From the IMG/VR virus record IMGVR_UViG_2526164649_000019: DNA of 6,745 nt. One strand, given 5' to 3'. The notes below the pieces were generated by a model. That model was not told the origin of the DNA and searched no databases. It worked only from the letters and a program-made list of their open reading frames with translations. A program made the translations under genes and the position numbers. This DNA is from a virus (lineage: Duplodnaviria > Heunggongvirae > Uroviricota > Caudoviricetes). Each line of letters begins with the position of its first letter. Within the stretch, counting starts at the first letter, position 1. Positions 1-5,145 of the stretch are shown piece after piece.

Positions 1-525
1 CTGCTGAACCAGACGTTCGCTCCTACAGCACCAAATCAGGTCTGGGTGGCGGACCTGACGTATGTTGCCACACAGGAGGGATGGTTGTACCTCGCTGGCA
101 TCAAAGATGTTTATACGTGCGAAATTGTCGGCTACGCCATGGGAGAGCGCATGACAAAAGAGCTGACAGGTAAAGCCCTGTTTATGGCGCTCAGGAGCCA
201 GCGCCCACCTGCCGGGCTAATCCACCACTCTGATCGAGGTTCACAGTACTGCGCATACGATTACCGGGTCATACAGGAGCAGTTTGGTCTGAAAACATCA
301 ATGTCGCGTAAAGGTAACTGTTACGACAACGCTCCGATGGAAAGCTTCTGGGGAACGCTGAAAAATGAGAGCCTGAGCCACTATCGTTTTAATAACCGGG
401 ATGAAGCCATCTCAGTAATACGGGAATACATTGAGATTTTCTACAATCGTCAGCGTCGTCACTCTCGTCTGGGGAATATCTCCCCGGCAGCCTTCAGGGA
501 AAAATATCATCAGATGGCTGCTTAA
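1..525 (+). CDS. IS3-family transposase OrfB, C-terminal catalytic (DDE/rve) portion; 5' end lies outside the window
   Basis: Frame is open from base 1 (LLNQTFAPTAPNQVWVADLTYV...) to TAA at 523-525. Contains rve-type transposase hallmarks: D in ADLTYV, HSDRGSQY, and GNCYDNAPMESFW with the catalytic E context. Family assignment is by motif recall, not a search. Confidence 0.85.
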   Translation: MLNQTFAPTAPNQVWVADLTYVATQEGWLYLAGIKDVYTCEIVGYAMGERMTKELTGKALFMALRSQRPPAGLIHHSDRGSQYCAYDYRVIQEQFGLKTSMSRKGNCYDNAPMESFWGTLKNESLSHYRFNNRDEAISVIREYIEIFYNRQRRHSRLGNISPAAFREKYHQMAA

Positions 526-562
526 AAAAGAACAAATGGTAGTGTCCGCTATTGCCAGTACA
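1..562 (+). mobile_element. Right-hand part of an IS3-family insertion sequence (possibly IS150-group); tentative right terminus ...GCCAGTACA ending at 562
   Basis: The transposase C-terminus ends at 525. IS3-family ends finish in CA, and the reverse complement of 556-562 reads TGTACTG, which matches my recollection of the IS150 terminus. The exact boundary is uncertain by tens of bp. Confidence 0.45.
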
Positions 563-837
563 CCTCACAACGCCATCCTGACAAGCGTTTTATCTTCAAC
601 GGGAATGAGATATGGAAACGTGGAGAATCAACCACAGAGTATACCCGCGCACACCAGCGAACAATCAGACGACTGCGCAGACTCATCGCCAGGAAACAGT
701 ATACAGAAAAATGGTTCAGAAAATATGACACATGGAGCGCCGGATATTACGAACTGATGGCAACAAAACCATTCTGACGTAAACGAAATTAACCATGACG
801 CAATTAAATAAGGCAAGCCGAATACATCAGGAGGACC

Positions 838-1026
838 ATGAACATTTATTTCAGAATAGTTATATCACTGGCAATTATCGCATGTATTTACGGATTAATC
901 GTTCCGGCCCTCATATCAATGAAGGATACGGTAGCAGTGATTTCTGGCTTTGCTCTGGCGTGTCTGACCCCGCCCTGCATTTATGCCATTTATAAGGGTC
1001 TTTCTTTTTCTAAGGATAAAAGATGA
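838..1026 (+). CDS. Small (62 aa) membrane protein with two predicted transmembrane helices; translationally coupled to the downstream SPFH gene
   Basis: Shine-Dalgarno AGGAGG at 829-834, ATG at 838. Two hydrophobic segments (IVISLAIIACIYGLIVPALI and VAVISGFALACLTPPCIYAIY) and a basic C-terminal tail (KGLSFSKDKR), consistent with both termini in the cytoplasm. Its stop TGA (1024-1026) overlaps the next ATG (1023-1025). Confidence 0.7.
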   Translation: MNIYFRIVISLAIIACIYGLIVPALISMKDTVAVISGFALACLTPPCIYAIYKGLSFSKDKR

Positions 1027-1850
1027 AAAAAGTTATTCCTGCTTTAGCCCTTGTTCTGCTGACCACCGGACTTGTCGGTTGCGATCGCGTTGAGCCTGGT
1101 AATGTTGGCATCAAGGTAAACAAACTGGGCGACGATAAAGGCGTCGGAGAAGTGGTCGGTGTTGGGCGCTACTGGACGGGATGGAACACTGAGGTTTACA
1201 TCTTCCCGACCTTCAAACAAATGAAGACCTACGATGAGCCATTCAGCTTCCAGATGAGTGACGGTACAACCATCGGCTATCACATCGGCGTGGCCTACAA
1301 AGTTGATCCATCCAAAGTTACCACAGTCTTTCAGACCTACCGCAAAGGCGTGGACGACATTACCGACACCGACCTGCGCCAGAAGATAGCCGACGCACTC
1401 AACCGACTGGCCAGCAAAATGACCACCGACAAATTTATCGACGGCGGCAAGTCTGAGCTGCTGGATGCAGCTCTTAAAGACATTCAGGAAGAAATGACGC
1501 CCATCGGTATTCAGGTAATGAGCCTCTCATATGTGGGTAAGCCGGAGTACCCGCCTACTGTTATCGACAGCATTAATGCCAAAGTCACGGCGAACCAGAA
1601 AACCCTGCAACGCGAGCAGGAAGTAAAACAGCGCGAAGCGGAAGCCAACATGTTGCGCGCGGAAGCTGCCGGACAGGCAGATGCGATTCGCACAAAAGCC
1701 CAGGCCGAAGCCGATGCTATTCGTTTACGCGGTGAAGCTCTGCGCCAGAACCCAAACGTTATGGAGCTGGAAGCCATCAACAAGTGGAACGGTACACTGC
1801 CGCAATACATGACCAGCGGTGCCAACACACCATTTATTCAGGTTAAGTAA
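1023..1850 (+). CDS. SPFH/band-7 (stomatin/prohibitin/HflKC-like) lipoprotein, predicted inner-membrane anchored with a periplasmic SPFH domain and a C-terminal Ala/Glu-rich coiled coil
   Basis: Signal peptide MKKVIPALALVLLTTGLVGC with lipobox L-V-G-C, followed by Asp at +2 (CD), the classical Lol-avoidance inner-membrane retention signal. SPFH-like core (GRYWTGWNTEVYIFPTFKQ ... IGIQVMSLSYVGKPEYPPTVIDSINAKV) and a heptad-like tail (QREQEVKQREAEANMLRAEAAGQADAIRTKAQAEADAIRLRGEALRQ). RBS AGGA at about 1011-1014. Confidence 0.88.
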   Translation: MKKVIPALALVLLTTGLVGCDRVEPGNVGIKVNKLGDDKGVGEVVGVGRYWTGWNTEVYIFPTFKQMKTYDEPFSFQMSDGTTIGYHIGVAYKVDPSKVTTVFQTYRKGVDDITDTDLRQKIADALNRLASKMTTDKFIDGGKSELLDAALKDIQEEMTPIGIQVMSLSYVGKPEYPPTVIDSINAKVTANQKTLQREQEVKQREAEANMLRAEAAGQADAIRTKAQAEADAIRLRGEALRQNPNVMELEAINKWNGTLPQYMTSGANTPFIQVK

Positions 1851-1857
1851 TACATAT

Positions 1858-1878
1858 GCCCGGTATTACACGCCGGGC
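1858..1878 (+). other. GC-rich stem-loop (6-bp stem GCCCGG/CCGGGC, 9-nt loop) in the spacer between the SPFH and ORF6N genes; no downstream U-tract
   Basis: Inverted repeat read directly at 1858-1863 and 1873-1878. It is followed by GTCTGGAG rather than a T-run, so it is not a canonical intrinsic terminator; it could be an RNA-stability or processing hairpin. Confidence 0.35.
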
Positions 1879-1893
1879 TGTCTGGAGATAAAA

Positions 1894-2643
1894 ATGAATA
1901 CTGTAACCATCAACAACAAACAGTTTCCGGTAATCGAATATCGCGGTCAGCGTGTTGTGACGCTGGCGATGATTGATGAAGTCCACCAGCGACCGGAAGG
2001 AACCGCGCGTGCAGCATTCAACCGAAACCGTGAGCATTTCATCAGCGGTGTGGATTATGCCGAATTAGGTGCGGACGTAATACGTACGGACCTCCCGGAA
2101 GGAACATTCTCTAAATTTGCACCATCGGGGATTGTACTTTTTGAATCAGGTTACCTGATGTTGACGAAGCCATTCAATGACGCCCTTGCCTGGCAGGTTC
2201 AGCGCGAACTGGTTAACAGCTACTTCCGCACTCGCACACCGCTAACGGAAATCGAGATGATCGCTGCGATAGCCGCCGACGCTGTTCGTCAACAGAAGCG
2301 CCTGAATCATGTGGAAGAACAGCTCGAAACAGTCACAGAAGCGGTGGAAACCATCAAACGCGGAAATATGCGCGCCGGATATGTCGGTTACCGCCAGGTG
2401 GTAGCCAAAAGTGGAATGAGTGACGCCAAGTGTCGGAATCTGGTGAACGCATATCAAATTCCTACAGACACCCACGAATTCATGACTCCGGACGGTCTGT
2501 TGTCTCGCAGGGCTATCGTCGAGCTTGAGCCATTTATGGCGGCGTTCCACCAAATGATGTCAGAGGCTGAACCACACGGCACACGCTGGTATCACCCGAA
2601 GATGGGGCTTTTCCAGGTGATCGGATGGGAGGATAAAGCATGA
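1894..2643 (+). CDS. ORF6N / KilA-N-like DNA-binding domain protein (antirepressor-like phage regulator), 249 aa
   Basis: RBS GGAG at 1884-1887, ATG at 1894 (MNTVTINNKQFPVIEYRGQRVVTLAMIDEV...). N-terminal region carries the pattern typical of ORF6N/KilA-N domains (RNREHFISGVDYAEL ... VLFESGYLMLTKPFND). The C-terminal half is helical and of unknown function. The ORF track's longer version (from 1819) overlaps the SPFH gene and lacks an RBS. Confidence 0.8.
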   Translation: MNTVTINNKQFPVIEYRGQRVVTLAMIDEVHQRPEGTARAAFNRNREHFISGVDYAELGADVIRTDLPEGTFSKFAPSGIVLFESGYLMLTKPFNDALAWQVQRELVNSYFRTRTPLTEIEMIAAIAADAVRQQKRLNHVEEQLETVTEAVETIKRGNMRAGYVGYRQVVAKSGMSDAKCRNLVNAYQIPTDTHEFMTPDGLLSRRAIVELEPFMAAFHQMMSEAEPHGTRWYHPKMGLFQVIGWEDKA

Positions 2644-3209
2644 TCATCCAGTCAAAACTTATTCGCGCCGCTCTGGTGTGCGCTGCTAAAAACGACGTTC
2701 GTTATTACCTGAACGGTCTTCACATCACGCCGAAACATATTGAGGCAACCAATGGTTCCGTGGCACTGCGCATGGCTCACGGCATCCGGACGAAGAAAAA
2801 CATCATTGTCCAGTTCGAAGGGGGCGTCCCGGCCAAAGCCGAAACGACAGAGCTGATTTTTAGTAAAGAGCCGATCGCTGTTCATCGCGACCAGTTTCAG
2901 CGACGACTGTCCATTACCGGCATTAAACTGGTGGACGGTTGTTTTCCGGATTTGGATCGCATCATTCCGAAAAAGTTTGACCGCTGTACTCACCCGGTGC
3001 TCCAGGCGGGTTACCTGAGTTATCCAGAGAAGATGTTTGGTCGTGAGCGTAAATTTATTCCCGTCCAGTTACGTCCCTCCGGTGACGGGCAAGCGGTCAG
3101 AATTCAGTTTGATTCCATCATCAACTCAATGTATGGCAATCCTGAATTTGTTGTGATGCCTTGTCGTGATCATGGCGATTTCAACGTGGCTCAGGAGCAT
3201 CCGGAATGA
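2640..3209 (+). CDS. Truncated beta-sliding-clamp (DnaN-like) protein, 189 aa: clamp domain II-like region plus a shortened domain III-like region
   Basis: RBS GGGAGG at 2627-2632; the ATG at 2640 overlaps the upstream stop (ATGA). Motifs colinear with E. coli DnaN as I recall it: NDVRYYLNG, ATNGSVALRM (cf. ATDGHRLAV), IKLVDGCFPDLDRIIPKK (cf. SKLVDGRFPDYRRVLPK) and EFVVMPCRD (cf. the C-terminal AYVVMPMRL). The CDS call is firm; the homology call is less so (about 0.6). Confidence 0.8.
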   Translation: MIIQSKLIRAALVCAAKNDVRYYLNGLHITPKHIEATNGSVALRMAHGIRTKKNIIVQFEGGVPAKAETTELIFSKEPIAVHRDQFQRRLSITGIKLVDGCFPDLDRIIPKKFDRCTHPVLQAGYLSYPEKMFGRERKFIPVQLRPSGDGQAVRIQFDSIINSMYGNPEFVVMPCRDHGDFNVAQEHPE

Positions 3210-3244
3210 AAATCGAATACCAGGACGCCGCAGGAGGTGAATCA

Positions 3245-3328
3245 ATGAGCTGGCCTGATGCAATCGTAACTCTGGGGATGGTATTCGCAGTAGCGTTTGT
3301 TGTGTACTCGATTTGTCGATGGGGATAA
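3245..3328 (+). CDS. Candidate 27-aa hydrophobic single-helix membrane peptide (MSWPDAIVTLGMVFAVAFVVYSICRWG)
   Basis: Near-consensus Shine-Dalgarno AGGAGGT at 3232-3238 with a 6-7 nt spacer to the ATG at 3245. It fills the gap between the flanking genes exactly (upstream stop 3209, downstream start 3333). Too short for the ORF track. Confidence 0.45.
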   Translation: MSWPDAIVTLGMVFAVAFVVYSICRWG

Positions 3329-3332
3329 CCAC

Positions 3333-3575
3333 ATGTTCGCTTTGATTCAACGCGGGCAGATATACACAGACAGAGCCGGATACCCAGTAGAAATTACTCG
3401 CAGTACTGAGCACTCAGTGTTCTTTCGGAGGATGGACGGACGTACCGGGCGAGTACGCATCGGTGAATTCAGTAGCCTGTTCGAGCATATTGACCACCTG
3501 GAATATCACAAGATTCTGGCTGAAACAGAACAAGAAAAGCACCTGAAGAAATTACGCGCAATGCAAAGGAAGTAA
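3333..3575 (+). CDS. Small conserved-looking phage protein, 80 aa, basic C-terminal helix (possibly a DUF4222-type prophage protein; unverified)
   Basis: ATG at 3333, in frame with the ORF-track ORF 3297-3575; the upstream part of that ORF overlaps the peptide gene, so the internal start is preferred. Weak RBS GGGGA. Sits in the operon context just upstream of the integrase region. Confidence 0.6.
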   Translation: MFALIQRGQIYTDRAGYPVEITRSTEHSVFFRRMDGRTGRVRIGEFSSLFEHIDHLEYHKILAETEQEKHLKKLRAMQRK

Positions 3576-3578
3576 AAA

Positions 3579-3725
3579 ATGAATAAAGCGTTTGAGCTAT
3601 GGGTCCACCAGCGTTACGGCAACCACTACGACCTGACGCGAGATGTTGACGGTTTCTACTGTCGTGAAATTGTGAAACGAATGTTTGAGGTCTGGTGCCA
3701 CTGCCGTGGGCTGAGTGTTGTGTGA
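3579..3725 (+). CDS. Small hypothetical protein, 48 aa, with three Cys and one His (MNKAFELWVHQRYGNHYDLTRDVDGFYCREIVKRMFEVWCHCRGLSVV)
   Basis: RBS AGGAAG at 3567-3572, ATG at 3579, 3 nt after the upstream stop. Same strand and tight packing as its neighbours. No function recognisable. Confidence 0.5.
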   Translation: MNKAFELWVHQRYGNHYDLTRDVDGFYCREIVKRMFEVWCHCRGLSVV

Positions 3726-3733
3726 GGTAATGC

Positions 3734-3896
3734 ATGGGCAATGTGATTCAACTGGCTCCCAATGAATGGGTTTGTGAAAGCGTTCTAATCGCAATTACCG
3801 GGCTCAAACCAGGCACAATTCTTCGGGCCCGGAAAGAATGCTGGATGGTTGGAAGAGAGTATATTCACGTATCACCAGACGGTAATCCAAAGCCTT
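3734..3896 (+). pseudogene. int: 5' segment of the tyrosine integrase gene (N-terminal excisionase/AlpA-like HTH DNA-binding domain), cut off from the rest of the gene by an IS911-like insertion; alternatively a separate xis
   Basis: RBS GAGGT at 3725-3729, ATG at 3734. Product MGNVIQLAPNEWVCESVLIAITGLKPGTILRARKECWMVGREYIHVSPDGNPKP resembles Xis/AlpA winged-helix proteins (cf. lambda Xis ...RRWVRECRIF...GREYLF). From 3898 the frame runs into the IS inverted repeat. Removing the IS and one copy of CTT joins this frame in-frame to the integrase body at 5149. Confidence 0.55.
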
Positions 3897-3897
3897 C

Positions 3898-5104
<1,207 letters not shown>

Positions 5105-5109
5105 ATCAC

Positions 5110-5145
5110 CTCTGTTCAGGTGGCCAAATTCAGTGTGCCACTTCA
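5110..5145. repeat. IS911-like left inverted repeat (IRL)
   Basis: Reverse complement reads TGAAGTGGCACACTGAATTTGGCCACCTGAACAGAG; 24 of 36 positions match the right inverted repeat. Confidence 0.8.

What the first reader, a model, noticed from the sequence alone, without database searches (positions are those of the whole stretch)
2640..3209. Prophage-encoded truncated beta-sliding-clamp (DnaN-like 'mini-clamp')
The 189-aa product carries, in DnaN order, three signature blocks of the bacterial replicative clamp as I recall E. coli DnaN: NDVRYYLNG...ATNGSVALRM (cf. QDVRYYLNG...ATDGHRLAV, start of domain II), ITGIKLVDGCFPDLDRIIPKK (cf. FTSKLVDGRFPDYRRVLPK, domain II/III boundary) and EFVVMPCRD near the C-terminus (cf. 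the terminal AYVVMPMRL that lines the partner-binding cleft). Domain I is absent and only about 77 residues follow the II/III boundary, against about 110 in DnaN. That is roughly 1.5 clamp domains, so it cannot form a normal three-domain protomer. Inference: it could heterodimerise with host DnaN, or mimic its binding cleft to capture proteins carrying clamp-binding motifs. Either would make it a replication-hijack or exclusion/abortive-infection effector. I do not know of a characterised clamp fragment in the integrase-proximal region of lambdoid phages.
Basis: partly seen in the sequence, partly recalled or inferred. Interest (0 to 1): 0.85.

Follow-up and report, generated by a model that had tools for sequence, protein, structure and literature searches.

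The report
Phage mini beta-clamp keeping partner pocket
A prophage gene encodes a cut-down copy of the bacterial DNA sliding clamp that keeps the pocket used to dock replication and repair proteins but lacks the parts needed to form a ring; it belongs to a large phage family that I found described in no paper.

Summary

Its architecture is DnaN domain II plus only the second half of domain III (about residues 313-366). Domain I and residues about 251-312 are missing, and with them both sides of the head-to-tail dimer interface. The second inner helix of domain II is also lost.

What the family conserves is the clamp-binding-motif pocket. Ten of the 18 columns that are at least 80% conserved across 140 diverse members are pocket residues (p=1e-7).

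Best reading: a basic module that lacks the canonical ring-forming interfaces and binds clamp-binding-motif peptides, diverting or tethering partners of the host clamp. Heterodimerisation with DnaN is disfavoured.

The gene is not unique. It lies in 61 of 5426 complete E. coli genomes and 253 phage records, and has at least 150 clusters of about 180-aa relatives. RefSeq already calls it 'beta clamp domain-containing protein', and PHROGs mislabels it 'RusA-like'. I found no functional study. The biological role is untested. This allele has H175->S in the pocket.

The parts
2640..3209 (+). Mini beta-clamp CDS (189 aa plus stop). Identical to RefSeq WP_000586688.1 'beta clamp domain-containing protein'.
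   Evidence: ORF list. 100% identical copies in E. coli and Shigella. PHROG 3007 full-length match, E=5.9e-65. dN/dS 0.09-0.16.
2627..2632 (+). Shine-Dalgarno GGGAGG, 7 nt upstream of the ATG. The ATG overlaps the stop of the upstream gene (ATGA).
   Evidence: Read directly from the sequence.
2640..2975 (+). aa 1-112: equivalent of DnaN domain II (about residues 132-250). Layout is beta-alpha-beta3 followed by beta-loop-beta3; the second inner helix is replaced by a loop with a conserved Pro64.
   Evidence: HMM alignment of query 5-115 to DnaN 136-254. Distant members match PF02767 positions 19-116 of 116. DSSP of two independent AF2 models.
2976..3170 (+). aa 113-177: equivalent of the SECOND half of DnaN domain III only (about 313-366): helix 123-133 plus three strands ending in the clamp C-terminal strand.
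   Evidence: A sub-profile of 140 members scores 30.7 bits on DnaN 313-366 and 3.1 bits on 251-312. Distant members match PF02768 positions 68-121 of 121.
3171..3206 (+). aa 178-189: variable C-terminal tail with low model confidence, absent from distant members.
   Evidence: pLDDT 77 to 52 in the last two blocks. Alignment A1.
2694..2717 (+). DVRYYLNG (aa 19-26) = DnaN 150-157. Contains pocket subsite I residues R152 and L155 (R21, L24).
   Evidence: Invariant in A1; 98% and 95% conserved in 140 representatives. Pocket residue list from PMC11139829.
2745..2768 (+). ATNGSVAL (aa 36-43) = DnaN 171-178. Pocket residues T172, G174 and H175 (T37, G39, S40). In this allele His175 is replaced by Ser.
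   Evidence: T and G are invariant. H is present in 89-91% of the family but is S or F in the E. coli/Shigella subclade.
2934..2969 (+). DGCFPDLDRIIP (aa 99-110) = DnaN 238-249. Pocket residues P242, R246 and V247 (P103, R107, I108).
3003..3017 (+). QAGYL (aa 122-126) = DnaN N320-V324. Pocket subsite II residues N320 and Y323 (Q122, Y125).
   Evidence: N or Q in 81-94% and Y in 89% of the family. Family consensus EIGFNaeYL aligns to DnaN EIGFNVSYV.
3147..3167 (+). FVVMPCR (aa 170-176) = DnaN Y359-R365. Pocket residues V360, M362, P363, M364 and R365.
   Evidence: M 96%, P 91% and R 82% conserved in 140 representatives.
1894..2643 (+). Upstream, translationally coupled ORF6N / anti-repressor-like gene (249 aa from the RefSeq start). 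Operon context. In E. coli its C-terminal region and the mini-clamp occur in nearly the same number of genomes.
   Evidence: Pfam ORF6N 2.1e-12 and PHROG 1726 anti-repressor. 57 genomes carry its C-terminal region and 61 carry the mini-clamp; in all 25 rows shown the match runs into the mini-clamp gene.
3206..3328 (+). Downstream overlapping 40-aa ORF with a hydrophobic segment. Annotated as hypothetical in RefSeq. Operon context.

Best explanation
The gene encodes a 'mini-clamp': a three-motif arc of the bacterial beta sliding clamp. It comprises domain II plus the C-terminal beta-alpha-beta3 half of domain III. These are exactly the pieces that together build the hydrophobic pocket where clamp-binding motifs (QL[SD]LF-type peptides) dock.

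It lacks domain I, the first half of domain III and one of the DNA-facing helices, so it lacks the parts with which DnaN closes its ring.

Most likely it acts as a small, basic module that binds clamp-binding-motif peptides through the retained pocket. In that way it would compete with the host beta clamp for one or more partners, such as polymerases, the clamp-loader delta subunit, Hda, MutS/MutL or RecB. It is probably expressed with the prophage's early-left operon, or as a stand-alone accessory gene in virulent phages.

What is shown: homology, architecture, fold, loss of the interface elements, pocket conservation, purifying selection and distribution. What is inferred: peptide binding, monomeric state, competition with DnaN, and which partner matters.
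For: - Homology and fold.
- Architecture of domain II plus the second half of domain III.
- Pocket mapping: 17 of the 18 published pocket residues (PMC11139829) could be mapped. In A1, 11 of the 17 are at least 89% identical to the E. coli residue, and most of the others are conservative (V/I, N/Q, M/C). Pocket positions are more conserved than the rest (0.85 vs 0.57; Mann-Whitney p=7e-7).
- In 140 representatives with median 29% identity to the query, 10 of the 18 columns conserved at 80% or more are pocket residues (Fisher p=1e-7).
- Missing ring elements: domain I and residues about 251-312, which include I272/L273. Helix alpha2' is absent in two independent models of members only 33% identical.
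- Basic pI (9.2; family median 8.4; DnaN 5.25). This fits docking of clamp-binding motifs, whose flanks are acidic.
- dN/dS 0.09-0.16.
- Placement among accessory or early genes beside methyltransferases, Lar and ParB-like genes. In Dhillonvirus it sits alone on the opposite strand among structural genes, far from the phage Pol I module.
- Lambdoid phages are known to manipulate clamp supply: the lambda sRNA LPR1/PreS raises dnaN translation (bioRxiv 10.1101/2024.10.31.621285).
Against: - No binding, oligomeric-state or phenotype data exist.
- Pocket residues are also the most conserved residues of DnaN itself, and they drive the homology detection. Part of the enrichment is therefore ascertainment.
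- This particular allele, and the E. coli/Shigella subclade, carries H175->S/F at the residue that bridges the two subsites, and R240->C. L177 is Ala in the close relatives (A1) but Leu in 44% of the 140 representatives.
- Removing half of domain III should expose a hydrophobic core. This argues for some oligomerisation or a bound partner rather than a free monomer.
- A sponge for Pol III would also hurt a lambdoid phage that needs host Pol III, so the relevant target, if any, must be more specific.
- Complexes could not be modelled with the tools allowed.
Confidence: 0.45

Rival explanations
1. Loader-independent tether, working like herpesvirus UL42. The basic mini-clamp binds DNA directly with a positive surface and uses the retained pocket to hold a polymerase or repair protein carrying a clamp-binding motif on phage DNA. 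It would recruit partners rather than sequester them.
For: - Basic pI of 9.2 against 5.25 for DnaN.
- The pocket is conserved.
- Some carriers encode their own Pol I.
Against: - The gene lies outside the replication modules, and in Dhillonvirus it is on the opposite strand among structural genes.
- The lambdoid carriers have no polymerase of their own.
- One of the three DNA-facing helices is lost.
- No DNA-binding data exist.
Confidence: 0.2
2. Ring or arc by self-assembly. Each protomer is 3 of the 12 beta-alpha-beta3 motifs of a clamp ring. Two protomers could pair their orphan half-domains about a dyad to rebuild a pseudo-domain III. Four protomers could close a D2-symmetric 12-motif ring that acts as a true sliding clamp.
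For: - The protomer has three clamp motifs and superposes rigidly on a 90-degree arc of the ring.
- The deletion leaves an unpaired half-domain that should need a partner surface (inference).
- E. coli beta*, a two-domain internal product reported to act as a trimeric clamp, is a precedent for shorter clamps. This is from my own knowledge (Skaliter, Paz-Elizur and Livneh, J Biol Chem 1996) and could not be verified in the library.
Against: - The helix that would face DNA in motif II-b is missing in both models.
- The canonical interface residues are gone.
- A D2 ring would present pockets on both faces, unlike any known clamp, and it is not obvious how a clamp loader would handle it.
- The monomer model is confident on its own (pTM 0.87).
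Confidence: 0.12
3. Clamp poison by heterodimerisation. The fragment would pair with a host DnaN protomer and block ring closure or loading.
For: Only the shared fold supports this. Monomeric beta is known to bind delta.
Against: Both halves of the head-to-tail interface are absent from the protein: domain I, and the first half of domain III with I272/L273.
Confidence: 0.05
4. The pocket is reused for a different ligand, for example single-stranded DNA or 3' ends, or a phage-specific peptide unrelated to host clamp partners.
For: - In the primed-DNA crystal structure the beta pocket binds the ssDNA part of the template (PMC11139829).
- The protein is basic.
- The H175 and L177 positions vary.
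Against: Subsite I and II residues are kept with the same identities as in DnaN across very divergent members. The simplest explanation is the same class of ligand.
Confidence: 0.1
5. RusA-like Holliday junction resolvase, as labelled in PHROGs and many phage records; or a decaying pseudogene fragment of a phage dnaN.
For: - PHROG 3007 carries the label 'RusA-like Holliday junction resolvase', and many phage records repeat it.
- The host prophage is degraded by IS911 and IS600.
Against: - There is no RusA family hit in Pfam or NCBIfam. The fold is unambiguously a clamp.
- dN/dS is 0.09-0.16.
- Length is uniform at 165-215 aa in the 150 best cluster representatives.
- The exact protein occurs on at least 1000 contigs.
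Confidence: 0.02

Closest known systems
Bacterial beta sliding clamp DnaN (E. coli, 366 aa; PDB 1MMI/2POL and others)
   Same: - Same beta-alpha-beta3 motifs.
- The same residues line the clamp-binding-motif pocket: equivalents of R152, L155, T172, G174, P242, R246, Y323, M362, P363 and R365.
- Same C-terminal strand, VVMPxR.
   Different: - Only 3 of 6 motifs: no domain I and no first half of domain III.
- Helix alpha2' is lost.
- No canonical dimer interface.
- Basic rather than acidic.
- Scores far below the TIGR00663 and Pfam thresholds.
- Phage-borne accessory gene rather than an essential chromosomal gene.
Short 'DNA polymerase III beta subunit' / 'RusA-like' proteins of virulent and temperate phages (PHROG 3007; Dhillonvirus, Deseoctovirus, Vibrio and Pantoea phages and others)
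   Same: - Same family: full-length PHROG match at 5.9e-65.
- 27-33% identity, with the same 1.5-domain model (BFVD TM 0.7-0.8; second AF2 model pLDDT 90).
   Different: - This copy belongs to an Enterobacterales prophage subclade of about 188 aa, with an extra short helix (aa 159-164) and a C-terminal tail.
- In the E. coli and Shigella copies it is coupled to an ORF6N gene, and the pocket carries H175->S/F.
- I found no study of any of these proteins.
E. coli beta* (UV-induced internal product of dnaN, domains II+III). From my own knowledge; not verified with the tools.
   Same: It starts at almost the same point of DnaN (about residue 135) and lacks domain I. It shows that shortened clamps can exist.
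   Different: beta* keeps the whole of domain III and is reported to assemble into a ring. The mini-clamp lacks a further half-domain and one inner helix.
Herpesvirus processivity factors UL42, UL44, BMRF1 and PF-8
   Same: - Viral clamp-fold proteins that, from my own knowledge, work without forming a closed ring.
- They bind a polymerase peptide in the equivalent inter-domain groove.
   Different: - They have two full domains and no detectable sequence relationship.
- They are eukaryotic viral proteins, and their DNA binding through a basic face is demonstrated.
- This is an analogy of mechanism only.
Phage and toxin proteins that target the beta clamp (Twort Gp168, PDB 7EVP; Caulobacter SocB)
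   Same: They share the presumed goal of interfering with traffic at the host clamp's pocket.
   Different: Those proteins bind the clamp. The mini-clamp would instead imitate the clamp and bind its partners.

Membership tests
Beta sliding clamp DnaN (TIGR00663; Pfam PF00712 + PF02767 + PF02768) | Three clamp domains (N-terminal, central, C-terminal) in one roughly 366-aa chain | tested here: not met
   189 aa with no PF00712 hit. The central domain is present, and only the second half of the C-terminal domain is present.
Beta sliding clamp DnaN (TIGR00663; Pfam PF00712 + PF02767 + PF02768) | Score above the curated family thresholds | tested here: not met
   TIGR00663 scores 21.2 bits against a cut-off of 137.65. 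PF02767 scores 17 bits against 27.
Beta sliding clamp DnaN (TIGR00663; Pfam PF00712 + PF02767 + PF02768) | Processivity-clamp fold (repeated beta-alpha-beta3 motifs) | tested here: met
   [not shown]
Beta sliding clamp DnaN (TIGR00663; Pfam PF00712 + PF02767 + PF02768) | Conserved hydrophobic pocket for clamp-binding motifs (subsites I and II) | tested here: met
   Tested by sequence only. 17 of 18 residues were mapped. 10 are at least 82% identical across 140 representatives. This allele has H175->S. Peptide binding itself was not tested.
Beta sliding clamp DnaN (TIGR00663; Pfam PF00712 + PF02767 + PF02768) | Head-to-tail dimer interface (domain I against the I272/L273 region of domain III) | tested here: not met
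   Both regions are absent. The C-terminal segment maps to DnaN 313-366 (30.7 bits) and not to 251-312 (3.1 bits).
Beta sliding clamp DnaN (TIGR00663; Pfam PF00712 + PF02767 + PF02768) | Closed ring that encircles DNA and is loaded by the DnaX complex | not testable with these tools
   Multimer modelling and biochemistry are unavailable. Loss of helix alpha2' argues against this feature.
Phage mini-clamp family (PHROG 3007; about 170-210 aa) | Full-length match to the family profile, with the same length class | tested here: met
   PHROG 3007 E=5.9e-65, protein residues 1-179 on profile positions 3-188 of 190. The best 150 representatives in a 1.84-billion-protein library cover the profile end to end, apart from about a dozen shorter fragments, and the full-length ones are 165-215 aa.
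RusA-like Holliday junction resolvase (the label attached to PHROG 3007) | RusA fold or family signature | tested here: not met
   No RusA family appears among the Pfam or NCBIfam hits at E<=1. The fold is a clamp. The label is a propagated misannotation.
Known anti-phage defence proteins (PADLOC-DB) | Match to any defence-system model | tested here: not met
   No hit at E<=0.1 for the protein or for five neighbouring genes.
E. coli beta* type two-domain clamp | Complete domains II and III | tested here: not met
   The first half of domain III is missing. The description of beta* itself rests on my own knowledge.

The most novel reading that the evidence does not exclude
The about 180-aa mini-clamps are a previously undescribed class of phage effectors. 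They would imitate the docking pocket of the host sliding clamp and pull one specific clamp client away from host DNA, or onto phage DNA without any clamp loader. Candidate clients are MutL/MutS, Hda, RecB, a translesion polymerase or the delta 'wrench'. An even stranger possibility is that four 1.5-domain protomers assemble into a D2-symmetric 12-motif ring, a clamp architecture never seen before.
Probability: 0.3. Interest if true: 0.8.

Novelty: new variant of a known kind. Interest (0 to 1): 0.55.

Why it matters
The beta clamp's pocket is the hub through which polymerases, mismatch repair, Hda, the clamp loader and (reported in 2026) RecBCD are coordinated. It is also an antibiotic target. 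A large phage-borne family keeps just that pocket on a minimal scaffold of about 180 aa, which suggests a way for viruses to rewire the hub by molecular mimicry rather than by inhibitors.

If the idea is right, it would give a natural minimal pocket domain useful for structural and drug-screening work. It would also give a genetic tool to titrate clamp clients in vivo. It would explain a gene present in hundreds of therapeutic-candidate phages that is currently mislabelled as a polymerase subunit or a RusA resolvase.

If the idea is wrong and these proteins assemble into rings, they would redefine the minimal building block of a sliding clamp.

Tried and rejected
1. Upstream ORF6N C-terminus as a dedicated clamp-binding-motif partner.
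- The ORF6N protein ends in RGTRWYHPKMG[LI]FQVIGW, which resembles the delta motif AMSLF. It is conserved in E. coli, Citrobacter and Xenorhabdus copies next to the mini-clamp.
- The same motif is kept in phi467 and phiP27, where no mini-clamp follows. It is therefore not specific to the mini-clamp, and I dropped it as evidence.

2. RusA-like resolvase label (PHROG 3007).
- No support from Pfam, NCBIfam or fold. Rejected as a misannotation.

3. Defence-system membership.
- PADLOC found nothing.

4. First half versus second half of domain III.
- The whole-family HMM and hhalign at first aligned aa 113-155 to DnaN 251-290, a result of internal pseudo-symmetry.
- A dedicated sub-profile and the Pfam coordinates settled it in favour of 313-366.

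5. First automated pocket mapping.
- The mafft --keeplength mapping was wrong because residues were dropped.
- One motif anchor was off by one. Both were corrected.

6. Natural fusion proteins as a way around the single-chain limit of the structure predictor.
- P0015 and P0035 are a C-terminal read-through and an N-terminal mis-start, not ORF6N or tandem fusions.

7. Literature.
- Ten searches used combinations of beta clamp, DnaN, phage, prophage, truncated, decoy, Jerseyvirus and accessory genes. None found a paper on these proteins. One further search failed on a formatting limit.
- The phage accessory-gene screen preprint does not mention clamps.
- The beta* papers could not be retrieved.
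Full report
**1. The observation**

The window carries an ORF at 2640-3209 on the + strand, encoding 189 aa. A GGGAGG Shine-Dalgarno lies 7 nt upstream of its ATG. The ATG overlaps the stop codon of the upstream gene (ATGA), and its own stop overlaps the ATG of a 40-aa downstream ORF.

I fetched the real E. coli K-12 dnaN.
- DVRYYLNG is identical to DnaN 150-157.
- ATNGSVAL corresponds to ATDGHRLA (171-178).
- KLVDGCFPDLDRIIPK corresponds to KLVDGRFPDYRRVLPK (235-250).
- FVVMPCRD corresponds to the C-terminal YVVMPMRL (359-366).

Pairwise BLASTP gives E=7e-8. Curated single-sequence models stay below threshold: PF02767 scores 17 bits against 27, and TIGR00663 scores 21 against 137.65.

**2. 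Homology is solid at profile and structure level**

- A database search found 78 relatives. About 60 of them are close relatives or fragments, mostly about 188 aa, where named from Enterobacterales. A second group of about 178-aa proteins is only 27-38% identical.
- A 35-sequence alignment (A1) searched against all PDB sequences returns 45 beta-clamp sequences among 47 hits. The other two are glutaredoxins at E>0.3. The best hit has E=1e-16.
- hhalign against E. coli DnaN gives 98.6% probability.
- AlphaFold2 with A1 gives pLDDT 91.6 and pTM 0.87.
- The top 41 Foldseek hits against the PDB are all bacterial beta clamps.
- A second model, of a member only 33% identical (P0065, from a marine phage-like contig), has the same layout with pLDDT 90.2.

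**3. Architecture**

Residues 1-112 correspond to DnaN domain II (about 132-250). For residues 113-177 the first alignments were ambiguous, because the two halves of a clamp domain are themselves related.

Two tests settled the question:
- Distant members hit Pfam PF02767 over positions 19-116 of 116, and PF02768 over positions 68-121 of 121 only.
- A profile of the C-terminal segment built from 140 diverse members scores 30.7 bits on DnaN 313-366. It scores 3.1 bits on DnaN 251-312 and about zero on the other half-domains. The family consensus EIGFNaeYL...MPMRL is collinear with DnaN EIGFNVSYV...MPMRL.

The protein is therefore DnaN minus domain I and minus about residues 251-312. This amounts to three of the six beta-alpha-beta3 motifs. 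The DSSP strings of both models show beta-alpha-beta3, then beta-loop-beta3, then alpha-beta3. The second inner helix of domain II (DnaN RKGVIELMRML) is replaced by a loop with a nearly invariant proline.

The deleted segment contains I272/L273, whose mutation makes beta monomeric (PMC11139829). The partner surface of that interface lies in domain I, which is also absent.

From the known positions of these residues I infer the spatial order of the retained motifs as II-b, II-a, III-b: a contiguous 90-degree arc with the partner pocket at its centre.

**4. What the family conserves**

The published pocket residues are as follows (PMC11139829):
- Subsite I: R152, L155, T172, G174, H175, R176, L177, P242, R246, V247, V360, M362.
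- Subsite II: H175, N320, Y323, V344, M362, P363, M364, R365.

Seventeen of these 18 could be mapped through unambiguous motif anchors.
- In A1, 11 of the 17 are at least 89% identical to the E. coli residue. Most of the rest are conservative (V/I, N/Q, M/C).
- Pocket positions are more conserved than the remainder of the protein (0.85 vs 0.57; Mann-Whitney p=7e-7).
- I then aligned 140 representatives from an exhaustive HMM search. Their median identity to the query is 29% and the minimum is 16%. Only 18 columns are at least 80% conserved.
- Ten of those 18 are pocket residues: the equivalents of R152, L155, T172, G174, H175, P242, Y323, M362, P363 and R365. Most of the others flank them (D150, Y154, G157, G239). 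Fisher's exact test gives p=1e-7.

Two caveats apply. These are also the most conserved residues of DnaN and help drive detection, so part of the signal is ascertainment. In addition, the allele in this window and its E. coli/Shigella relatives carry Ser or Phe instead of His175, and Cys instead of Arg240.

**5. The gene is real, selected and common in phages**

- dN/dS is 0.16 against a 97%-identical E. coli copy and 0.09 against a Citrobacter copy.
- The exact protein is on at least 1000 contigs. UniRef calls it 'DNA polymerase III subunit beta'.
- Recent RefSeq annotations call it 'beta clamp domain-containing protein'.
- It is present in 61 of 5426 complete E. coli genomes, and in Shigella flexneri with 100% identity.
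- tblastn finds relatives in 253 phage records, mostly Salmonella, Escherichia, Klebsiella and Vibrio phages. They include Dhillonvirus, Deseoctovirus and Kagunavirus members and Vibrio and Ralstonia phages. They are annotated either 'DNA polymerase III beta subunit' or 'RusA-like Holliday junction resolvase'.
- The second label comes from PHROG 3007, which the protein matches end to end at 5.9e-65. Nothing supports a RusA relationship.
- An exhaustive search of 1.84 billion cluster representatives gives 12,054 hits at E<=1e-3. The best 150 cover the profile end to end, apart from about a dozen shorter fragments, and the full-length ones are 165-215 aa.
- BFVD contains many phage proteins of 180-250 aa with the same fold, at TM 0.7-0.8.

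**6. Context**

In the window the gene sits in a tightly packed, co-oriented block:
- a small membrane ORF;
- an SPFH/Band-7 lipoprotein;
- an ORF6N anti-repressor-like gene;
- the mini-clamp;
- a 40-aa ORF;
- a DUF4222 gene;
- a 48-aa ORF;
- xis, then int.

The block lies next to yecE (DUF72), the attachment locus. No sigma-70-like promoter is found between 500 and 4000, against 4.4 expected from shuffles. This is consistent with read-through from a distal early promoter, as in the lambda pL operon; that is an inference.

Elsewhere the gene behaves as a mobile accessory gene:
- It sits beside a methyltransferase and a ParB-like gene in phage C1.
- It sits beside Dam and SSB in a Vibrio phage.
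- It sits beside Lar in a metagenomic phage.
- In Dhillonvirus TheodorHerzl it stands alone on the opposite strand between capsid and spanin genes, 24 kb from the phage Pol I module.

PADLOC gives no hit.

**7. Mechanism**

The retained parts are exactly those that form the partner pocket. The lost parts are those needed for the ring. The family is basic: pI 9.2 for this protein and a family median of 8.4, against 5.25 for DnaN. The flanks of clamp-binding motifs are acidic.

I therefore favour a module that lacks the canonical ring interfaces, binds clamp-binding-motif peptides and competes with the host clamp for one or more clients. My confidence is about 0.45.

The rivals are:
- a UL42-like, loader-independent tether on DNA (0.2);
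- self-assembly of half-domains into a pseudo-domain, and possibly a four-protomer ring (0.12);
- a different ligand in the pocket, such as ssDNA (0.1);
- heterodimerisation with DnaN, disfavoured by the missing interfaces (0.05);
- resolvase or pseudogene (0.02).

Two papers give biological plausibility but no direct evidence. Lambda raises dnaN translation with an sRNA (bioRxiv 10.1101/2024.10.31.621285). RecB carries a clamp-binding motif (PMC13254535).

**8. Literature and novelty**

Ten full-text searches found no paper describing these short phage clamps. The accessory-gene screen preprint does not mention clamps.

The homology itself is already encoded in automated annotation. The following appear to be new:
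- the 1.5-domain architecture;
- the precise deletion;
- the loss of the interface and of one inner helix;
- the pocket-centred conservation.

I rate it a new variant of a known kind, with interest 0.55. It is a well-defined, testable lead in a large family, but without any functional evidence, and the allele in this window has an altered pocket residue.

Noticed in passing
window 3898-5140 (- strand): An IS911 (IS3 family) copy replaces 341 bp that are present in an intact E. coli copy of the prophage. The 3' end of xis (now 3734-3897) and roughly the first 71 codons of int are gone, so the prophage should be unable to excise.
   Followed up: yes
window 1-569 and 567-839: The 3' part of IS600 is followed by prophage sequence that lies to the left of IS600 in E. 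coli RMDEC332. The IS600 insertion point is therefore about 270 bp further left than in that reference, implying an independent insertion or a rearrangement.
   Followed up: partly
window 2590-2625 (C-terminus of the ORF6N gene, 1894-2643): The anti-repressor-like protein ends in RGTRWYHPKMGLFQVIGW. [quoted passage not shown] The segment is conserved in Citrobacter and Xenorhabdus, but also in phi467 and phiP27, which have no mini-clamp downstream. It could be a host-clamp-binding motif or merely structural.
   Followed up: partly
window 838-1026 and 1023-1850: A 62-aa membrane ORF overlaps (ATGA) an SPFH/Band-7 lipoprotein (Pfam 6e-31; PHROG 200). This is a membrane-scaffold pair in the early-left arm of the prophage, and its function is unknown.
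   Followed up: no
PHROG 3007 and many phage GenBank records (e.g. NC_054651.1 17626-18162, PP580404.1 38860-39480): The clamp-fold family is widely annotated as 'RusA-like Holliday junction resolvase'. Nothing in sequence or fold supports this, so it looks like a propagated misannotation.
   Followed up: yes
window 2757-2759 (codon 40) and 2940-2942 (codon 101): The E. coli/Shigella subclade has Ser or Phe where 89-91% of the family, and DnaN, have the pocket-bridging His175. It also has Cys in place of Arg240. The cause could be altered specificity or relaxed constraint in this lineage.
   Followed up: partly
window 500-4000: There are no sigma-70-like promoter matches at all (0 found against 4.4 +/- 2.2 in shuffles) across the SPFH, ORF6N, mini-clamp, DUF4222 and xis block. 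This is consistent with one long operon driven from outside the window.
   Followed up: no
window 3206-3328, 3333-3575 and 3579-3725: Three small conserved genes lie between the mini-clamp and xis: a 40-aa hydrophobic peptide, a DUF4222 protein (PHROG 285) and a 48-aa protein (PHROG 3871). All are of unknown function, and all are kept in the E. coli copies of the prophage.
   Followed up: no
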